Shown: positions 20,308-42,849, numbered from the stretch's first letter. The stretch: 64,000 nucleotides of DNA from the human T2T-CHM13v2.0 reference genome, Homo sapiens (GCF_009914755.1 NC_060940.1); one strand, 5' to 3'. The notes: generated by a model from the sequence alone, not told the origin. Numbers and translations: made by a program.

Positions 20308-20536
20308 GCTCCACAAAGGAAGTAAAGAGCATTCGAAACCTGCTAAGCCGACTACCTTCATCTGCCCACATTCGAATCACTCCAATTCCTGTTTTAAGCA
20401 TTACATCATTGGCCACAGTGCTGCAAAACTTGGCCTTCAGGTTTTCAATAGAACTGCTTCCATCATAGACTGCAACGAAGTTTCTCTTGCATTCATTTGA
20501 GTGCTCCATTTGATAATCTAGGAACCTCAAATAAAT
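20308..20536 (-). CDS. NETO2: NETO2 exon 7 ([20 protein letters not shown]...RMLFTSFVE; rest of CUB2)
   Basis: Within ORF 20300..20650; acceptor atattacag|ATT, donor GAGC|GTAAGT; 229 nt, phase 0-1; cumulative CDS 883 nt. Confidence 0.97.
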
Positions 20537-22889
20537 CTGTAATATTAACACAAAAACACTGCTTTTAAAAAGATATATTAATTTGAATTTTTCTATTTCT
20601 ATTTTCCACAGACAACATGGGACACCGAATGACAGCTGACAGAAAACCATAATCGATAAATGGCTGATGCCTAAATAGTGAGAGGAACTAAGATTAATGA
20701 TCTGTTTCTTTGGTTGTCTTTATAATGGAACCAAGCATTAAGGAACTTACTTTGTGTTTTGTCTATAAAGAGTAGAAACTTTTTGCTCACAAGGCATAAC
20801 TATCTCACATTTTTCTCATTATAAAAGCAATCTCATGGTACTGGACAGGGGAGAAAATAAAATAATCACTCATATTTCTATTATTCCAACAATGCATGTG
20901 ATTAATTGGTGAGTTTCTTTTCACTCTTTCTGCACATTAAAAAAACCTGTGTTTAATTGTAAGATATACACATCCTACTTTAGCTGTAACATATAAAAAT
21001 GTTTTTATCTATACTCTTAGCCATACCTATTCCCGGATGTCCTATTATTTATTTACACAATATCCTACTGTTCTACATGGTTGCTTTATTTCACCTCTTA
21101 ACAATACCTGCATTTTCAGACAGGCAGACGTCAACTGTACTATCAAAGGAAGCTCTATTAGCATCCCCCATTCAAATTTTATAGCTAAATGGTTCTAAGT
21201 TATTTCCTAAACACTCTTGACCCATTCTTGTTTGGCGATTTCTCTTACATTGTGAATTTAGATTTTAAGCATTAATCTCCAGAAGAGCCTAATGAAGTAG
21301 GTATCATGTTTTTTTGTGGGCAGAGATGAATCTGTTATTCGGTGGCAAGGATTAAACCCAGGTTGGTCTGACTCTAAATGTGCGTCCTTCTCATTCCATG
21401 AAGCGCTTTACATACTCACACAGTGTTCCCTGTTTGGGCTCTAGTTTCTCATATGTGACTCTATCATTAAAATAAAATTTGAGTGAGTGAATAAAGATTA
21501 CCTTTGAATTGCCATTCAAGACATCTAATGAGTATTCACTTCCTAGCTATTATTTCTGAGGGAGCAGTATGCCACATCTACCCTTTAATTCGAAGAGATT
21601 AATAAAACAAAAATGTCATGTCATATATTCCCCCCCCACCCCACCAAATACCTTGATGGCATAAAACTAAGAGAGAACAACTTACAAAATATAGCTTAAA
21701 GAATTACATTTTGACTAAATAATTTTGGTTTATTTGAAATGACTGGTTCACCACTTCCGTGAGAATGGTGGAAAATTGGTAATGAAATAGGATTTCCAGT
21801 TCAAAACTTTACAAAGTCTTCATGCGTGTATTTTAACAAAGAAGCAATATGTTTTCTTAAATATATCAACAGTTCTCATTAGTTTTCCATCACTTATATA
21901 ACCCAAACCCTCCGCTCACACTCTGGTAGCGAGCTCTAATGCTGTAATGACTTCCCTCTTCCACTAGACTGTGATGTCTTCCAATGGAAGGTCACTGGCT
22001 CAGTTTCATCCAGTATAATTCTTGCTCATGGCAGACAATGAGAAAGTGACTAGGCTTGTAAAACTATGACTTGGTAGAAGTATCAGTAGAATAATCAAGC
22101 TGTCTGAAGTATTTATATTTACTCTCTGCTTTTCTTTTAATCCAAATAAATATGGTATTATATAAGGCTATAGTAAATGCTCTTCAAAGACATATTTTTA
22201 AAAAAACATCGAGTTAAAGATAAATAATAACAAGATCACAGCACTTTTCTACTGTAAATACAGCTAAATATTGAATTGTTTAGTTCAACAAATTTTTGGG
22301 AAATATTCATAACGTGAATCTGACAAATTGCAATGTTGGGAGAAGGGCATAAACTACTTTTCTTTTACTCCAGATTGCATGAGAAGGGATCTTTTACTTA
22401 CAACTTTCATCAAGTAAGTGACCTCTTACCCTATCCCTATATCCTACCCAGGGAGGCAGGGCAAGTTACCTGGATGGTGGGAGTTTGGTTTCTTTTTCCC
22501 TCCCCTCATAGGAAGTGGGACTGGGTAGGCCGGTCTGCTCTGCAGATGCGAACTTTCCCTGGAGTGGAATGGGCTGTTCTAGACTTAGGTGAGACGTAGA
22601 ACTGGTGGGCAAGGAGTTGCCAACACTAATTAGATCATCTCTCTGCGTTGCTCTCTCTATCCTAGCCTTCACTGTGGTAAAGAGGCTTTTCCAACTCCCT
22701 ACACACTGACACTTTTATTTCTCAATTGGTTCAGCACTCCACCAGGGAAAAGGGATGCTATTTATTGGAGCCCCTGAAGACCCCAACAGAAATGAAATCC
22801 CCAGAAAGCTACTATCATGAAAAGGCCACTGATAAAAGTGGACTAAAACACTATTTGTATACTCTTAAACATCGATGCCTTCTTTTGTA

Positions 22890-23042
22890 TATTTATTTTT
22901 AAAATATATTTTTAATTTTAAAAATAGAGACAGGGTCTTGCCATGTTGTCTAGGCTGGTCTTGAACTGCCAGGCTCAAGTGATCCTTCCGCCTCAGCCTC
23001 CCAAAGTGCTGGGACTGCAGGCATGGGCCACCGTGACTGGCT
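22890..23042 (-). mobile_element. FLAM/Alu monomer
   Basis: Reverse left-arm monomer. Confidence 0.85.
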
Positions 23043-23175
23043 TCTTTTTATATTTATAAATGGATATTTTTCTTAAACATCACCCATGAACTAGTTTCTC
23101 ACATTTAGTATTCAAGGGTAATGGTGACTTTTAACATTTAATTTAGATTTCTTAAATAAAACCATCTATTTACAC

Positions 23176-23484
23176 TTTTTTGTTTGTTTGTTTTCTTTTT
23201 TTAGACAGAATCTCACTCTGTCTCCTAGGTTGGAGTTCAGTCGCGTGATCGCGGCTCTCACTGCAGCCTCCACCCCCAATTCAAGAGATTCTTGTGCCTC
23301 AGCCTCCTGAGTAGTTGGGACTACCGGTGTGCACCACCACACCTGGCTAATTTTTTGTATTTTTAGTAGAGATGGGGTTTCACTATGTTGCCCAGGCTGG
23401 TCTCGAACTCTTGACCTCAAGTGATCCGCCTGCCTCAGACTCCCAAAGTGCTGGGTTTACAAGCGTGAGCCACTGCGCCTGGCC
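23176..23484 (-). mobile_element. Alu
   Basis: Reverse dimer; direct repeat tatttacac on both sides. Confidence 0.9.
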
Positions 23485-40188: not shown

Positions 40189-41516
40189 CTTAGGGAAAAA
40201 CGGCATTTAAAACACTCATTACAGCAAAAGAGAATCATTCTTCTCTTTCCCCCACCACTTTCCAAACGATTGCTCACTCTATGCTACATATATAAAATTT
40301 TCTAAGAACCACTGTCAAATTTAGCACAATAAATTGAGTACAGAAGTGAAAGAGAGGGAGGGAAAACTTGCTGGGAGAGGACAAGTTTGCCGTGTAAGAG
40401 AACAGGGAAATAAAGGGCTTATAGGCACTTAACAAAGGGCAAAACCATATGGGGGAATCTGCTAAGTCAGTAAGATGCAATACAATTCAGTTCTAACCTA
40501 AAAATAAAGGCATCCCAGGAGCTGATCTCTGATATGGGGCCCTCAAACTTAGTTTAACACAACAGTAAAAGATGATTCAAAGGTTAGAGGGATTTTAGTT
40601 GAAGACTGTAGACTAAATACATGCACGTAGCTGAGCTCCTTCCTCAAACTCCACTTAAACAGCAATAAAAGGATTTTTAAAAGGGTATAAACTCTTAAAC
40701 AGAGAGGGGTAGATATAGCAGTAACAACTGGCAGTACCAGGAAGTGGGGTTGGGGGTGGTGAGTGAAATTGGGCTTTTTAAAAACATGAGGCTAGTTAAA
40801 AGTCTGTTTAGAATGAGTTGGATTTTCAGTACCCTTTCCTCCTCCACAAATCTAGCAGCTCTACAACCACATCAGAACACTAAAGGTGATTTCTTTGGAG
40901 AAGGTAAAACAACAGGGTTACTGGACTAGGGGACACCAGGAACAGTTGAGAACGAAAACAGGGAGACGAGTGAATGTTAGCACATGTCCCAGCCTTCGTT
41001 TCCTGCTTAACTCCCACAAAGGCCTCCTGGTCAGATATTGAGCCTTTAAGCAGGAAAAGAAAAGATTCTTCTCTGGGAGTCGAAACAGCCCCTAGGAAAG
41101 GCTTGATGCAGATGCAGGAGTTCCCCAGTGTCAGATCTGTCAACAGTGAGAGCCAGTAACTGATCCTTGCCCACACCTGCAGACAGTTAACGATCAGTTT
41201 TTAGTGCCCCTCTTAAAATATGAGCCCTCAAGGATCACCAGACATTGGAGGAAAATCTCTAATATAAATAAATAAATAAATAATAATAATAATAAAACTG
41301 GAGAAAAGCAACTCTGAGGAGATAAAGACTATGCAAGAAAAATATTTAAAAACCACCACCACCACAAAACAATCATTTAATATCCTGAGAAAGAAAAGCA
41401 AGTAAATCTATAAGACAAAAACAAAGATACTGTACAAACAATATTATATTCAGAAAACAGAACCAAAAAAGCTTCCAAAAACAGAAGAGATGAAAAAATC
41501 AGCAGAACATTTAGAG

Positions 41517-41731
41517 CAGAGTTCAGCAAACTATGACCCTGGGCCAAACATGACCTGGAGCCTGCTGTAAATAAAGTTTTACTGGAATATACCCATCCCC
41601 ATCATTTGTGTGCTTTTGTTCCAGGACAGAAGAGTTGAGGAATTTGAAGAGTTGCTTCAGAGACTGTAGGACCTACAGCGCCTTAAACACTTACGATCTG
41701 ACCCTTTACAGAAAAAGTGTTCTAACTCCTG
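41517..41731 (+). mobile_element. MER58A-like hAT element
   Basis: CAG...CTG termini; 8-bp TSD atttagag/gtttagag. Confidence 0.75.
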
Positions 41732-42792
41732 GTTTAGAGGTAAAGTTGAGGAAGTCTCAGCGAATGTGGAGCAAAAAGATGGAAAACAGAAGAGCCAGAA
41801 ACAAAAACCAAGAGGGCCATAACCAAGTAAAATAATAGAATTCCTGAAAAGGCAAAAGAGAGAAAATGGAGGAAAGGGAATTTTAAAAATTAAAACAGAA
41901 AAAAAAAAAAAAGATTTCCTAAAGATAAAATTCAGCTGAATGAGTGACTTAATGTAAATCCTGAATACTGAGTTAACCAGAATTATGACAGAACTGTGTT
42001 GAGAAGGGTGCTACAAATGCAAGGTACGAGAACACTCAAATATGGATGGGGTGGACGGTAGGTGCGTGAAAGAGCTAAATTCTCATCTTCCACGGTGAAA
42101 AATCATTATCTAATTTATAAAACTGAAATAACCAAGAAGTAGCAATACAGCATGTTATTTAGAGAAAGGAAGGGAAATACCAAAAGAATCAGCTAAGAGT
42201 GATTATTTCCATGGAGCAGGAAGTTAAGTAGGGCAAGATGGGGAACTCATTTTTCCTAATTAACTTTTTAGGAATGCTTTGATTTTTATCATGTGTATGT
42301 ATTACTTAGATGAAAATAAAAAACAAACAACATTACACTGGAAATGTACTAAATTCAGACATAAAAATCTGGCTAAAAAAAATCACACTAGCTAATCATC
42401 AAACATAAATCAAGACAAAAGAACAGAACCAAAGGACTTTGAATAAGATATTAATTGAAGTGTTTCATTTGTTTAAATTAGAAAAAGGGACTTTTATTTT
42501 TGCTTAGTGATAAAATATAAATCTCCTTTAATTTTTGGACATAATCCACAGTATGCTAGGAGCTACTAGTGATGTCAATTTTAAAAATTTATCAGGGCAA
42601 GACTTTATGCTGACAATTTAGTTAACTGCAGCTAAACTCAGTTAAATTGAGGCTGATGGGTTGACAGAAAGCCTTAGGTCACTGGAACACCCCAAAGGGA
42701 TTATGAAAATAGTACCCAAAAGTTGCAATCCTTTCAAATAAGCCAGTCCATTGTCTTAAACATGCAGTAAGTCACCAATGTAAGTACTTTAC

Positions 42793-42849
42793 CTTGGGTT
42801 TTTTGGGCCACGGCAATCCCTTCCACTACCAGTACTGTTATTAACAACA
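42793..42849 (-). CDS. NETO2: NETO2 exon 2 (VLLITVLVVEGIAVAQKTQ; signal peptide h/c region)
   Basis: Acceptor ttctctag|TG, donor CAAG|GTAAAG; 57 nt, phase 1-1; continues exon 1 frame; too short for the ORF track. Confidence 0.96.

What the first reader, a model, noticed from the sequence alone, without database searches (positions are those of the whole stretch)
20308..42849. Exon 2-7 circle would carry an endless ORF, and its junction rebuilds a signal-peptide-like segment
Seen: exons 2-7 total 57+141+249+45+128+229 = 849 nt, exactly 283 codons (828 nt with the shorter exon 5). Exon 7 ends in phase 1 (GAG C) and exon 2 starts in phase 1 (TG TTG). A back-splice gives GAG CTG TTG, with no stop anywhere in the NETO2 frame. 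The junction peptide is ...[36 protein letters not shown]. It places basic residues and in-frame Mets (e.g. ATG at 20332) just before the native hydrophobic core and likely cleavage region, replacing the missing exon 1. Established: stop-free circRNAs can undergo rolling-circle translation; NETO CUB domains engage kainate receptors. Inference: the circle could produce ER-targeted CUB1-CUB2 concatemers or clipped soluble ectodomain lacking LDLa/TM, acting as a decoy modulator. I recall NETO2 circRNAs in catalogues but have not verified this. The start contexts are weak.
Basis: partly seen in the sequence, partly recalled or inferred. Interest (0 to 1): 0.8.

Follow-up and report, generated by a model that had tools for sequence, protein, structure and literature searches.

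The report
Known NETO2 circular RNA, endless frame
The exon 2-7 circle of the human NETO2 gene is a real, already catalogued circular RNA, and its stop-free reading frame follows from how the gene's exons are phased; nothing yet shows that it is translated.

Summary
Exons 2-7 sum to 849 nt (828 with the short exon 5). The native frame runs round the circle without a stop, through a CTG junction codon. An in-frame ATG lies 8 codons before the junction.

The circle is known. It is hsa_circ_0003520 (circNETO2, circNETO2_006; 849 nt), raised in kidney cancer. It was measured on RNase R-treated RNA with a primer that spans exactly this junction. It was also rebuilt as a full-length 849-nt isoform in nasopharyngeal cells.

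The endless frame is not special. Exons 2-5 are each a multiple of 3 and exons 6+7 sum to 357. So 15 of 21 possible contiguous circles are stop-free, including the two other catalogued NETO2 circles. One study gives about 14% of human circRNAs such a frame.

The signal-peptide likeness is real on crude measures, because the hydrophobic core and cleavage region lie in exon 2. Of 5 in-frame donors, only exon 7 adds a nearby Met and net positive charge.

I found no evidence of translation, ER entry or decoy action. Two supplement sets held no NETO2 junction peptide. Verdict: a known object carrying an untested hypothesis.

The parts
42793..42849 (-). NETO2 exon 2 (57 nt). It is the back-splice acceptor exon and encodes the hydrophobic core (LLITVLVV) and the likely cleavage region (EG / AVA-Q) of the native signal peptide.
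   Evidence: An AG acceptor follows a long pyrimidine tract. The exon starts with one codon base already read.
40048..40188 (-). Exon 3 (141 nt, phase 1-1). First half of CUB1, with Cys 33 and Cys 60 of the lap.
39149..39397 (-). Exon 4 (249 nt, phase 1-1). Second half of CUB1, with Cys 88 and Cys 110. It holds the in-frame ATG at 39221. It is also the donor exon of the catalogued exon 2-4 circle hsa_circ_0039238.
33693..33737 (-). Exon 5 (45 nt, phase 1-1), a linker. The alternative short form 33714-33737 (24 nt) gives an 828-nt circle that is also stop-free.
33482..33609 (-). Exon 6 (128 nt). First half of CUB2, with Cys 165 and Cys 195.
20308..20536 (-). Exon 7 (229 nt), the back-splice donor exon. 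It encodes the second half of CUB2 (Cys 222, Cys 244) and holds in-frame ATGs at 20509, 20401, 20371 and 20332. It ends GAG C and is followed by the donor GTAAGT.
20330..20332 (-). The in-frame ATG nearest the junction (lap residue 275, 8 residues before the junction Leu). Its context is weak, with -3 C and +4 C.
48949..49246 (+). Full-length 7SL-derived (Alu-type) repeat in intron 1. It is inverted relative to the Alus of intron 7.
   Evidence: 80-84% identity over 282-299 nt to 18612-18889, 17608-17903, 15554-15844 and 5261-5550, all in reverse orientation. (Metazoa_SRP matches at 48950-49064 and 49083-49230, + strand).
44128..44438 (+). 7SL-derived repeat about 1.3-1.6 kb upstream of exon 2 in intron 1. 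It is inverted relative to the intron 7 Alus.
   Evidence: for example 44220-44387 against 18780-18615, 80.5% over 169 nt. (Metazoa_SRP, 71.3 bits, + strand).
47233..47533 (-). Alu in intron 1 in the opposite orientation. It can pair within intron 1, competing with circle-forming pairing, or with the + strand element at 20012-20142.
18612..18899 (-). Alu in intron 7, about 1.4 kb downstream of exon 7. It is the nearest full-length partner for the + strand Alus of intron 1.
15554..17905 (-). Further minus-strand Alus in intron 7 (15554-16021 and 17608-17905). More lie at 2659-2972, 5261-5833 and 9738-9983.

Best explanation
The feature is the catalogued human circular RNA hsa_circ_0003520 (circNETO2, circNETO2_006).

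How it forms: the strong donor of NETO2 exon 7 is back-spliced to the strong acceptor of exon 2. These two sites sit between an 11.6-kb intron 1 and an intron 7 of more than 20 kb. Both introns carry Alu repeats in opposite orientation, which can pair across the circle and bring the two splice sites together.

Why the frame is endless: the exons have symmetric phase. Exons 2-5 are each phase 1-1, and exons 6+7 together are a multiple of 3. Nearly every NETO2 circle therefore keeps the frame.

Why it looks like a signal peptide: the NETO2 signal peptide is split by intron 1, so its hydrophobic core and cleavage region travel with exon 2.

What it does: most likely it is a non-coding side-product of NETO2 transcription whose level follows host-gene activity, which would explain its rise in kidney cancer. 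At most it is translated rarely and to no functional end.

Shown: the sequence facts, the existence of the circle, and the inverted repeats. Inferred: Alu-driven biogenesis and the lack of meaningful translation.
For: Identity:
- PMC11882777 Table 2 (passages) lists chr16_47143393_47165936_- = hsa_circNETO2_006 = hsa_circ_0003520, length 849, 45.6-fold up in ccRCC.
- It also lists chr16_47143393_47163275 = hsa_circ_0039236, 792 nt, which equals exons 3-7.
- PMC6826865 table (passage) gives circ_0003520 on NM_018092 NETO2, 4.39-fold up.
- PMC8124893 (passages) ran qPCR on RNase R-treated RNA of 121 ccRCC and 91 normal tissues. Its reverse primer maps to the last 13 nt of exon 7 plus the first 10 nt of exon 2, and occurs nowhere contiguous in the window.
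- psirc supplements of PMC8647826 hold a full-length isoform NETO2_E7B2 of 849 nt. Its exon coordinates have the same spacing as the window exons. TPM is 14.6, 7.0 and 8.7 in three non-tumour samples.
- The hg38 junction 16:47109483|47132025 is also listed in an ovarian-cancer table.

By-product frame: 15 of 21 contiguous circles are multiples of 3, and all 15 are stop-free. The catalogued exon 3-7 and exon 2-4 circles are among them. According to PMC9242994, 14% of human circRNAs have a host-frame rolling-circle ORF (passages).

Biogenesis: 15 of 24 BLAST matches between intron 1 and the window part of intron 7 are inverted, at 75-84% identity and up to 299 nt. The repeats are 7SL-derived and their strands are as stated. 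Flanking introns are 11,558 nt and at least 20,307 nt.

Against translation:
- All five AUG contexts are weak.
- The two IRES-like hexamers named in PMC9242994 are absent.
- DRACH motifs number 18, against 15.4 +/- 3.4 in shuffles.
- NETO2 is not in the held supplements of two circRNA-peptide studies.
Against: - Absence of evidence is weak here. Stored supplement files can be cut, and I could not query TransCirc, riboCIRC or circAtlas.
- PMC9242994 reports that circles made only of coding sequence can be translated in rolling-circle fashion. It also reports that rolling-circle ORFs are over-represented among circRNAs with mass-spectrometry support.
- The junction peptide would be a 25-residue, very hydrophobic tryptic peptide. 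It would also be removed if it worked as a signal peptide. Proteomic silence is therefore expected even if the hypothesis is true.
- From the ATG at 20332 the N-terminus matches the native signal peptide closely on crude hydrophobicity measures.
- Low circNETO2 predicted worse survival in ccRCC, which hints at some biology, though it may only be correlative.
Confidence: 0.75

Rival explanations
1. The circle is translated without termination from an internal AUG, for example the one at 20332. The rebuilt N-terminus acts as a signal peptide. CUB1-CUB2 units or concatemers enter the ER and are secreted, then act as a decoy for kainate-receptor binding.
For: - The frame is stop-free and has five in-frame AUGs.
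- One lap is 283 aa and holds all 8 cysteines of the two CUB domains.
- From Met 275 the N-terminus has a 9-residue core and 12-, 15- and 21-residue hydrophobicity sums within about 0.5 of the native signal peptide. It also keeps the same EG / AVA-Q region.
- Exon 7 is the only one of 5 in-frame donors that supplies a nearby Met and net positive charge.
Against: - There are no translation data for this circle.
- The AUG contexts are weak.
- A Glu sits directly before the core where the native peptide has Lys.
- On later laps the hydrophobic segment would enter the translocon in the orientation opposite to a signal peptide. Signal-peptidase clipping of each lap is therefore not expected (inference).
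- Its 19-21-residue insertion sums are +1.5 to +2.6. It would probably pass into the lumen as an exposed greasy linker, inviting ER quality control.
- PMC9242994 found two of three rolling-circle products to be proteasome-sensitive.
- There is no N-glycosylation sequon in the lap.
Confidence: 0.04
2. The circle is translated at a low level, but the product does not enter the secretory pathway, or it is misfolded there. It is degraded and has no function beyond possibly feeding the MHC-I peptide pool.
For: PMC9242994 reports pervasive low-level circRNA translation and proteasomal turnover of rolling-circle products. CUB domains need disulfide bonds, 8 Cys per lap, and would not fold in the cytosol (established knowledge of CUB domains).
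Against: No NETO2-derived peptide occurs in the held supplements of the circRNA immunopeptidome study. The initiation signals are weak.
Confidence: 0.11
3. The circle has a non-coding function. It could sponge miRNAs or bind proteins, or its formation could compete with linear splicing and so lower full-length NETO2 mRNA.
For: PMC8124893 lists 19 miRNAs with predicted sites and predicted RNA-binding-protein sites near the junction. It also finds that low circNETO2 independently predicts shorter survival. ceRNA-network papers include NETO2 circles. Back-splicing of exons 2-7 necessarily consumes a pre-mRNA that could have made mRNA (inference).
Against: All of these are predictions or correlations; none of the passages read reports a functional test. 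At most two sites per miRNA are predicted, far from a sponge-like density.
Confidence: 0.1

Closest known systems
hsa_circ_0003520 (circNETO2 / hsa_circNETO2_006)
   Same: It has the same junction, the same six exons and the same 849-nt length. This is the object itself.
   Different: Nothing differs at the RNA level. The T2T window spans 22,542 bases against 22,543 in hg19 and hg38, a 1-nt intronic difference lying between exon 5 and exon 2. No listing from my searches points to a paper on its reading frame or translation.
Endogenous rolling-circle ORF circRNAs: circPSAP, circPFAS and circABHD12 (PMC9242994); circNFIB and mouse circRTN4 (table in PMC11724312); circEGFR (recalled, seen in no call)
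   Same: The length is divisible by 3, the host frame has no stop, and internal AUGs are present.
   Different: Those have junction peptides or tagged-reporter ladders. circNETO2 has neither in what I could search.
circRNA-encoded secreted or dominant-negative ectodomain proteins: circMET, circFGFR1, circNlgn (which keep the signal peptide) and circCDH1 (which lacks it)
   Same: These are circles from genes of membrane proteins that would encode ectodomain pieces without the transmembrane part.
   Different: In those that keep a signal peptide, the circle includes the first coding exon and its native start codon. The NETO2 circle lacks exon 1 and the native AUG. It would have to start at an internal Met and use a chimeric N-terminus built across the junction. 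PMC11724312 states the general rule that back-splicing removes signal peptides located in exon 1. NETO2 is a partial exception because intron 1 splits its signal peptide.
Other catalogued NETO2 circles: hsa_circ_0039236 (exons 3-7, 792 nt) and hsa_circ_0039238 (exons 2-4, 3701-bp span)
   Same: They come from the same gene, share splice sites, and are both multiples of 3 and stop-free.
   Different: The exon 3-7 circle lacks exon 2 and so lacks the hydrophobic core. The exon 2-4 circle has its nearest upstream Met 24 residues before the junction and no net positive charge.

Membership tests
Exonic back-spliced circRNA | Junction joins an annotated 5' splice site to an upstream annotated 3' splice site with canonical GT/AG | tested here: met
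   exon 7 donor GTAAGT; exon 2 acceptor AG after a pyrimidine tract.
Exonic back-spliced circRNA | Back-splice junction observed in RNA and resistant to RNase R | tested here: met
   From the literature, not from raw reads. A junction-spanning primer was used on RNase R-treated RNA. RNA-seq junction calls exist. A full-length isoform was rebuilt from RNase R libraries and the BSJ confirmed by RT-PCR. One search does not say which NETO2 BSJ was run on the gel.
Exonic back-spliced circRNA | Long flanking introns with inverted complementary repeats | tested here: met
   Introns of 11,558 nt and at least 20,307 nt. 15 of 24 cross-intron matches are inverted, up to 299 nt at 75-84% identity. The repeats are 7SL-derived. 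That they drive circularisation is inferred.
Rolling-circle (infinite) ORF circRNA | Length divisible by 3 and one frame without a stop round the circle | tested here: met
   849 = 3 x 283, with 0 stops in the native frame and 18 and 24 in the others.
Rolling-circle (infinite) ORF circRNA | In-frame start codon | tested here: met
   Five AUGs, all in weak context. Near-cognate in-frame codons: 4 CTG, 7 GTG, 5 TTG.
Rolling-circle (infinite) ORF circRNA | Evidence of translation: junction peptide, junction ribosome footprints, or a concatemer ladder | tested here: not met
   0 occurrences of NETO2, 0003520 or the junction coordinates in the 4 held supplement files of PMC9242994. 0 occurrences in the 7 files of PMC10943130. 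Held files can be cut, and TransCirc and riboCIRC could not be queried, so this is weak negative evidence.
Cleavable N-terminal ER signal peptide | Hydrophobic h-region of about 7-15 residues near the N-terminus | tested here: met
   The 9-residue core is LLLITVLVV, with mean Kyte-Doolittle 3.51 against 3.56 for the native core. It starts 8 residues after Met 275.
Cleavable N-terminal ER signal peptide | Positively charged n-region | tested here: inconclusive
   From Met 275 the lead-in has no basic residue and one Glu. From Met 262 it has three Arg but also Asp and Glu and is 21 residues long.
Cleavable N-terminal ER signal peptide | c-region with small residues at -1 and -3, and a positive call from a trained predictor | not testable with these tools
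   The EG and AVA-Q motifs are kept in exon 2. SignalP, Phobius and DeepTMHMM are not available here. The native cleavage position is recalled, not checked.
CUB-domain pair (NETO ectodomain) | Two CUB domains, each with four conserved cysteines, complete within the circle | tested here: inconclusive
   There are 8 Cys per lap in a 4+4 pattern, in exons 3-4 and exons 6-7, and the gene is annotated as NETO2. No profile scan of the lap protein was obtained, so domain limits rest on the cysteine pattern and recalled knowledge.

The most novel reading that the evidence does not exclude
circNETO2 (hsa_circ_0003520) is translated from the AUG at 20332 or 20371. The chimeric N-terminus built across the back-splice junction works as a signal peptide even though exon 1 is missing. 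A secreted or lumenal CUB1-CUB2 protein, as a single lap or a concatemer, then modulates kainate receptors or other NETO2 partners. This would be the first case of a signal peptide reconstituted by back-splicing.
Probability: 0.04. Interest if true: 0.7.

Novelty: already known. Interest (0 to 1): 0.2.

Why it matters
As it stands this is a check that comes out ordinary. The circle is a published kidney-cancer biomarker candidate, and its endless frame follows from exon arithmetic shared by most possible NETO2 circles.

One point is worth keeping. A review (PMC11724312) states that back-splicing removes signal peptides because they lie in exon 1. Genes whose signal peptide is split by intron 1, like NETO2, escape that rule in part, since the hydrophobic core and cleavage site ride in exon 2. 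A genome-wide list of such split-signal genes with in-frame circles would give a defined and cheaply testable set of candidates for secreted circRNA products. If circNETO2 itself were translated and secreted, it would add a soluble NETO ectodomain to kainate-receptor biology and to kidney-cancer biology.

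Tried and rejected
1. Profile scan of the one-lap protein against Pfam. No result was obtained, and I did not repeat it. 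CUB limits therefore rest on the cysteine pattern.
3. PMC7385491 was said to have measured circNETO2 in lung. My word-start search for 'NETO2' found 0 occurrences, so I take nothing from it.
4. PMC6788225 is a false lead. Its 'novel_circ_0003520' is an unrelated in-house label.
5. PMC4134816 matched the number 47109482 by chance and was not opened.
7. The brain claim stays open. A bioRxiv preprint reports 'NETO2_0001' falling with age in prefrontal cortex. Its Table 2 is an image and bioRxiv supplements are closed, so I cannot say whether that is the exon 2-7 circle.
8. IRES-like hexamers: the two named in the text of PMC9242994 (AAGAAG, AATTCA) are absent from the circle. The full hexamer list was not examined.
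9. m6A-type DRACH motifs are not enriched: 18 against 15.4 +/- 3.4 in 1000 mononucleotide shuffles.
10. I rejected per-lap cleavage into soluble ectodomains. After the first lap the chain is already threading N to C into the lumen. The repeat hydrophobic segment would therefore have the wrong orientation for signal peptidase (inference from established translocon topology rules).

Full report
**1. The observation**

I read both ends of the proposed circle on the minus strand and rebuilt the exons from the annotated coordinates.
- The lengths are 57, 141, 249, 45, 128 and 229 nt, 849 in all.
- Every exon has an AG acceptor and a GT donor. Exon 7 is followed by GTAAGT, and exon 2 is preceded by a long pyrimidine tract.
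- Exon 1 supplies 34 coding bases, so exon 2 begins one base into a codon. Exon 7 ends one base into a codon.
- Joining them makes CTG (Leu). Round the circle the NETO2 frame has no stop, while the other two frames have 18 and 24.
- The short exon 5 variant gives 828 nt, again stop-free.
- There are five in-frame ATGs, at window 39221, 20509, 20401, 20371 and 20332. They lie 158, 67, 31, 21 and 8 residues before the junction Leu, and none has a purine at -3 together with G at +4.

**2. Is the endless frame more than chance?**

No. Exons 2, 3, 4 and 5 are each a multiple of 3 and begin in the same phase, and exons 6 and 7 sum to 357. Of the 21 contiguous circles that exons 2-7 can form, 15 are multiples of 3, and all 15 are stop-free in the native frame. 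The only new codon in any such circle is the junction codon.

Phase-1-symmetric exons are the usual build of extracellular module genes; this is established knowledge of exon shuffling, recalled and not tested here. In a study of full-length human circRNAs, 14% carry a host-frame rolling-circle ORF (PMC9242994, passages). TransCirc assigns such ORFs mechanically to every circRNA (PMC7778967, passage).

**3. The circle exists and is catalogued**

- PMC11882777 (passages) lists chr16_47143393_47165936_- as hsa_circNETO2_006 = hsa_circ_0003520, length 849, 45.6-fold up in clear-cell kidney cancer.
- Beside it stands chr16_47143393_47163275_- = hsa_circ_0039236 of 792 nt, which is exons 3-7.
- Its qPCR primers map to exon 6 and exon 3 of my circle and face outward. 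They would amplify both circles.
- PMC6826865 (one table passage) found circ_0003520 4.39-fold up on a microarray.
- PMC8124893 (passages) measured circNETO2 in 121 tumours and 91 normal kidney tissues after RNase R treatment. The reverse complement of its reverse primer is the last 13 nt of exon 7 followed by the first 10 nt of exon 2, and it has no contiguous match in the window.
- The psirc supplements of PMC8647826 hold a reconstructed full-length isoform NETO2_E7B2 of 849 nt. Its hg38 exon coordinates have spacing equal to the window's for exons 5-7. TPM values are 14.6, 7.0 and 8.7 in three of the four non-tumour samples and near zero in the tumour samples. An E7B3 isoform of 792 nt is also listed.
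- The main text says a NETO2 junction was confirmed by RT-PCR on RNase R-treated RNA, but not which one.
- The hg38 junction 16:47109483|47132025 also appears in a table of an ovarian-cancer study.
- hsa_circ_0003520 is 2.7-fold up in a bronchopulmonary dysplasia array.
- A third catalogued circle, hsa_circ_0039238 (chr16:47162235-47165936, 3701 bp), matches exons 2-4 (window 39149-42849) exactly.

For brain, a preprint reports NETO2_0001 falling with age in prefrontal cortex. I could not see its coordinates.

It remains open for brain.

**4. How the circle is probably made**

Intron 1 is 11,558 nt. Intron 7 runs at least 20,307 nt to the window edge.

A BLAST of intron 1 against the window part of intron 7 gave 24 matches, 15 inverted and 9 direct, up to 299 nt long at 75-84% identity. 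Rfam shows these repeats are 7SL-derived, that is Alu-type, and gives their strands.
- Intron 1 has + strand copies at 44236-44384 and 48950-49230, and a - strand copy at 47255-47533.
- Intron 7 has - strand copies at 18618-18899, 17621-17905, 15563-16021, 9867-9983, 5267-5832 and 2682-2830, and a short + strand copy at 20012-20127.

So the + copies of intron 1 can pair with the many - copies of intron 7. The nearest pair lies about 1.4 kb from each splice site. The - copy in intron 1 offers competing pairing within the intron.

That such pairing promotes back-splicing is established knowledge (recalled). That it does so here is inference.

Intron 4 also holds - strand Alus (34538-34819, 36188-36677). 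This fits the exon 2-4 circle.

**5. The signal-peptide likeness**

The native N-terminus has 11 residues from exon 1. The rest of the hydrophobic core (LLITVLVV) and the EG / AVA-Q region come from exon 2. Any circle with exon 2 keeps these.

| Measure | Native N-terminus | Circle, from Met 275 |
|---|---|---|
| Best 9-residue window (Hessa sum) | -2.97 | -3.21 |
| Best 12-residue window | -1.12 | -1.16 |
| Best 15-residue window | -0.96 | -0.48 |
| Best 21-residue window | +1.77 | +1.95 |

Both carry one charged residue just before the core, Lys in the native and Glu in the circle.

Among the five donors that join exon 2 in frame (exons 2, 3, 4, 5, 7), only exon 7 provides all three of the following:
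- a Met within 8 residues; the next best is 24 residues, and three donors have none within 30;
- a net positive charge, +2 against 0, -2, 0 and -2;
- the most hydrophobic 8-residue lead-in, 1.31 against -0.38 to 0.66.

The likeness is real and is a 1-in-5 event within this gene. It is suggestive but small. No trained signal-peptide predictor was available.

**6. What a translated product would be**

One lap is 283 residues, about 31 kDa. It has eight cysteines in a 4+4 pattern in exons 3-4 and exons 6-7, and no N-glycosylation sequon. This fits two complete CUB domains. I did not obtain a profile scan of the lap protein, so the domain limits are not tested.

The lowest 19-residue insertion sums round the circle are +1.5 to +2.6. 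The repeat hydrophobic segment is therefore not expected to stop transfer.

On later laps the segment would enter the translocon in the orientation opposite to a signal peptide. Signal peptidase should then not clip each lap (inference). A concatemer would carry an exposed greasy linker every 283 residues. PMC9242994 found two of three rolling-circle products to be proteasome-sensitive.

**7. Evidence on translation**

For the hypothesis:
- PMC9242994 shows that circles made only of coding sequence can be translated in rolling-circle fashion.
- It also shows that rolling-circle ORFs are enriched among circRNAs with junction peptides.
- The circle is 58% A+T.

Against the hypothesis:
- The AUG contexts are weak.
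- The two named IRES-like hexamers are absent, and DRACH motifs are not enriched.
- NETO2, '0003520' and the junction coordinates occur 0 times in the 4 held supplement files of PMC9242994, which reports 990 junctions with spectra.
- They occur 0 times in the 7 held files of the immunopeptidome study PMC10943130.

Held files can be cut when stored, so these negatives are weak. The junction peptide would also be hard to see: it is 25 residues, hydrophobic, and would be removed if it functions as a signal.

**8. Is the idea in print?**

- A search for at least two of NETO2, 'rolling circle translation', 'infinite ORF', 'circRNA-encoded', riboCIRC and TransCirc found 134 papers. None of the 25 listed held NETO2.
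- NETO2 with 'rolling circle' found 3 papers, two of them meeting abstract books and one a vesicle review.
- NETO2 with circRNA and 'signal peptide' found 4, none about NETO2 circles by title.
- NETO2 with 'circular RNA', 'open reading frame' and 'translat' found 3, none relevant by title.

For these last four searches I saw listings only.

The review PMC11724312 (passages) states the general rule that back-splicing removes signal peptides that lie in exon 1. It lists circMET, circFGFR1 and circNlgn as circles that keep one because they include the first coding exon. A signal peptide rebuilt across a junction is not mentioned in the passages I read.

**9. Verdict**

The object is already known: hsa_circ_0003520, an Alu-flanked back-spliced circle of NETO2 exons 2-7.

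Its endless frame follows from exon phase. Its signal-like junction follows from a split signal peptide plus a modest coincidence at the end of exon 7.

The translation, secretion and decoy model is not excluded, but no data support it and part of it (per-lap clipping) is unlikely. I put it at about 4%.

Interest is low for the finding as given. The side idea of listing split-signal genes with in-frame circles is cheap to test.

Noticed in passing
window 31744-31846 (-), inside intron 6: Rfam snoU13 match over the full model, 66.6 bits against a gathering score of 46. It agrees with the annotated LOC124903806. It lies in the same sense as NETO2 inside the genomic span of the circle, but not in the spliced circle. 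Whether it is an expressed copy or a U13 pseudogene was not examined.
   Followed up: partly
window 30091-30142, 25390-25441, 24531-24582, 18639-18698, 2704-2764 and others: Sub-threshold Rfam matches to mir-1268 and mir-3135 (44-68 bits against gathering scores of 80-83). All sit inside the 7SL/Alu matches. They look like Alu-derived look-alikes rather than miRNA genes.
   Followed up: no
window 1-54407, NETO2 introns: Strong strand bias of the Alu-type repeats. Nearly all copies in intron 7 and in introns 4 and 6 are on the - strand, sense to NETO2. The + strand copies cluster in intron 1 (44236-44384, 48950-49230), with a few elsewhere (20012-20127, 28631-28747, 34185-34324). This layout favours pairing of intron 1 with every downstream intron, and may explain why all three catalogued circles start at exon 2 or exon 3.
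   Followed up: partly
window 33738-42792, between exon 5 and exon 2: The exon 7-to-exon 2 genomic span is 22,542 bases in this T2T window but 22,543 in hg19 and hg38. Exon 5-7 spacing is identical to hg38, so a 1-nt intronic difference lies between exon 5 and exon 2.
   Followed up: no
window 33610-33692: Intron 5 is only 83 nt, while its neighbours are 5.4 kb and 12.9 kb. Exon 5 has an alternative acceptor 21 nt downstream in the transcript (window 33737 against 33758). Both forms keep the frame.
   Followed up: no
window 39149-42849 and 20308-40188: The two other catalogued NETO2 circles, hsa_circ_0039238 (exons 2-4, 447 nt) and hsa_circ_0039236 (exons 3-7, 792 nt), are also stop-free in the NETO2 frame.
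   Followed up: yes
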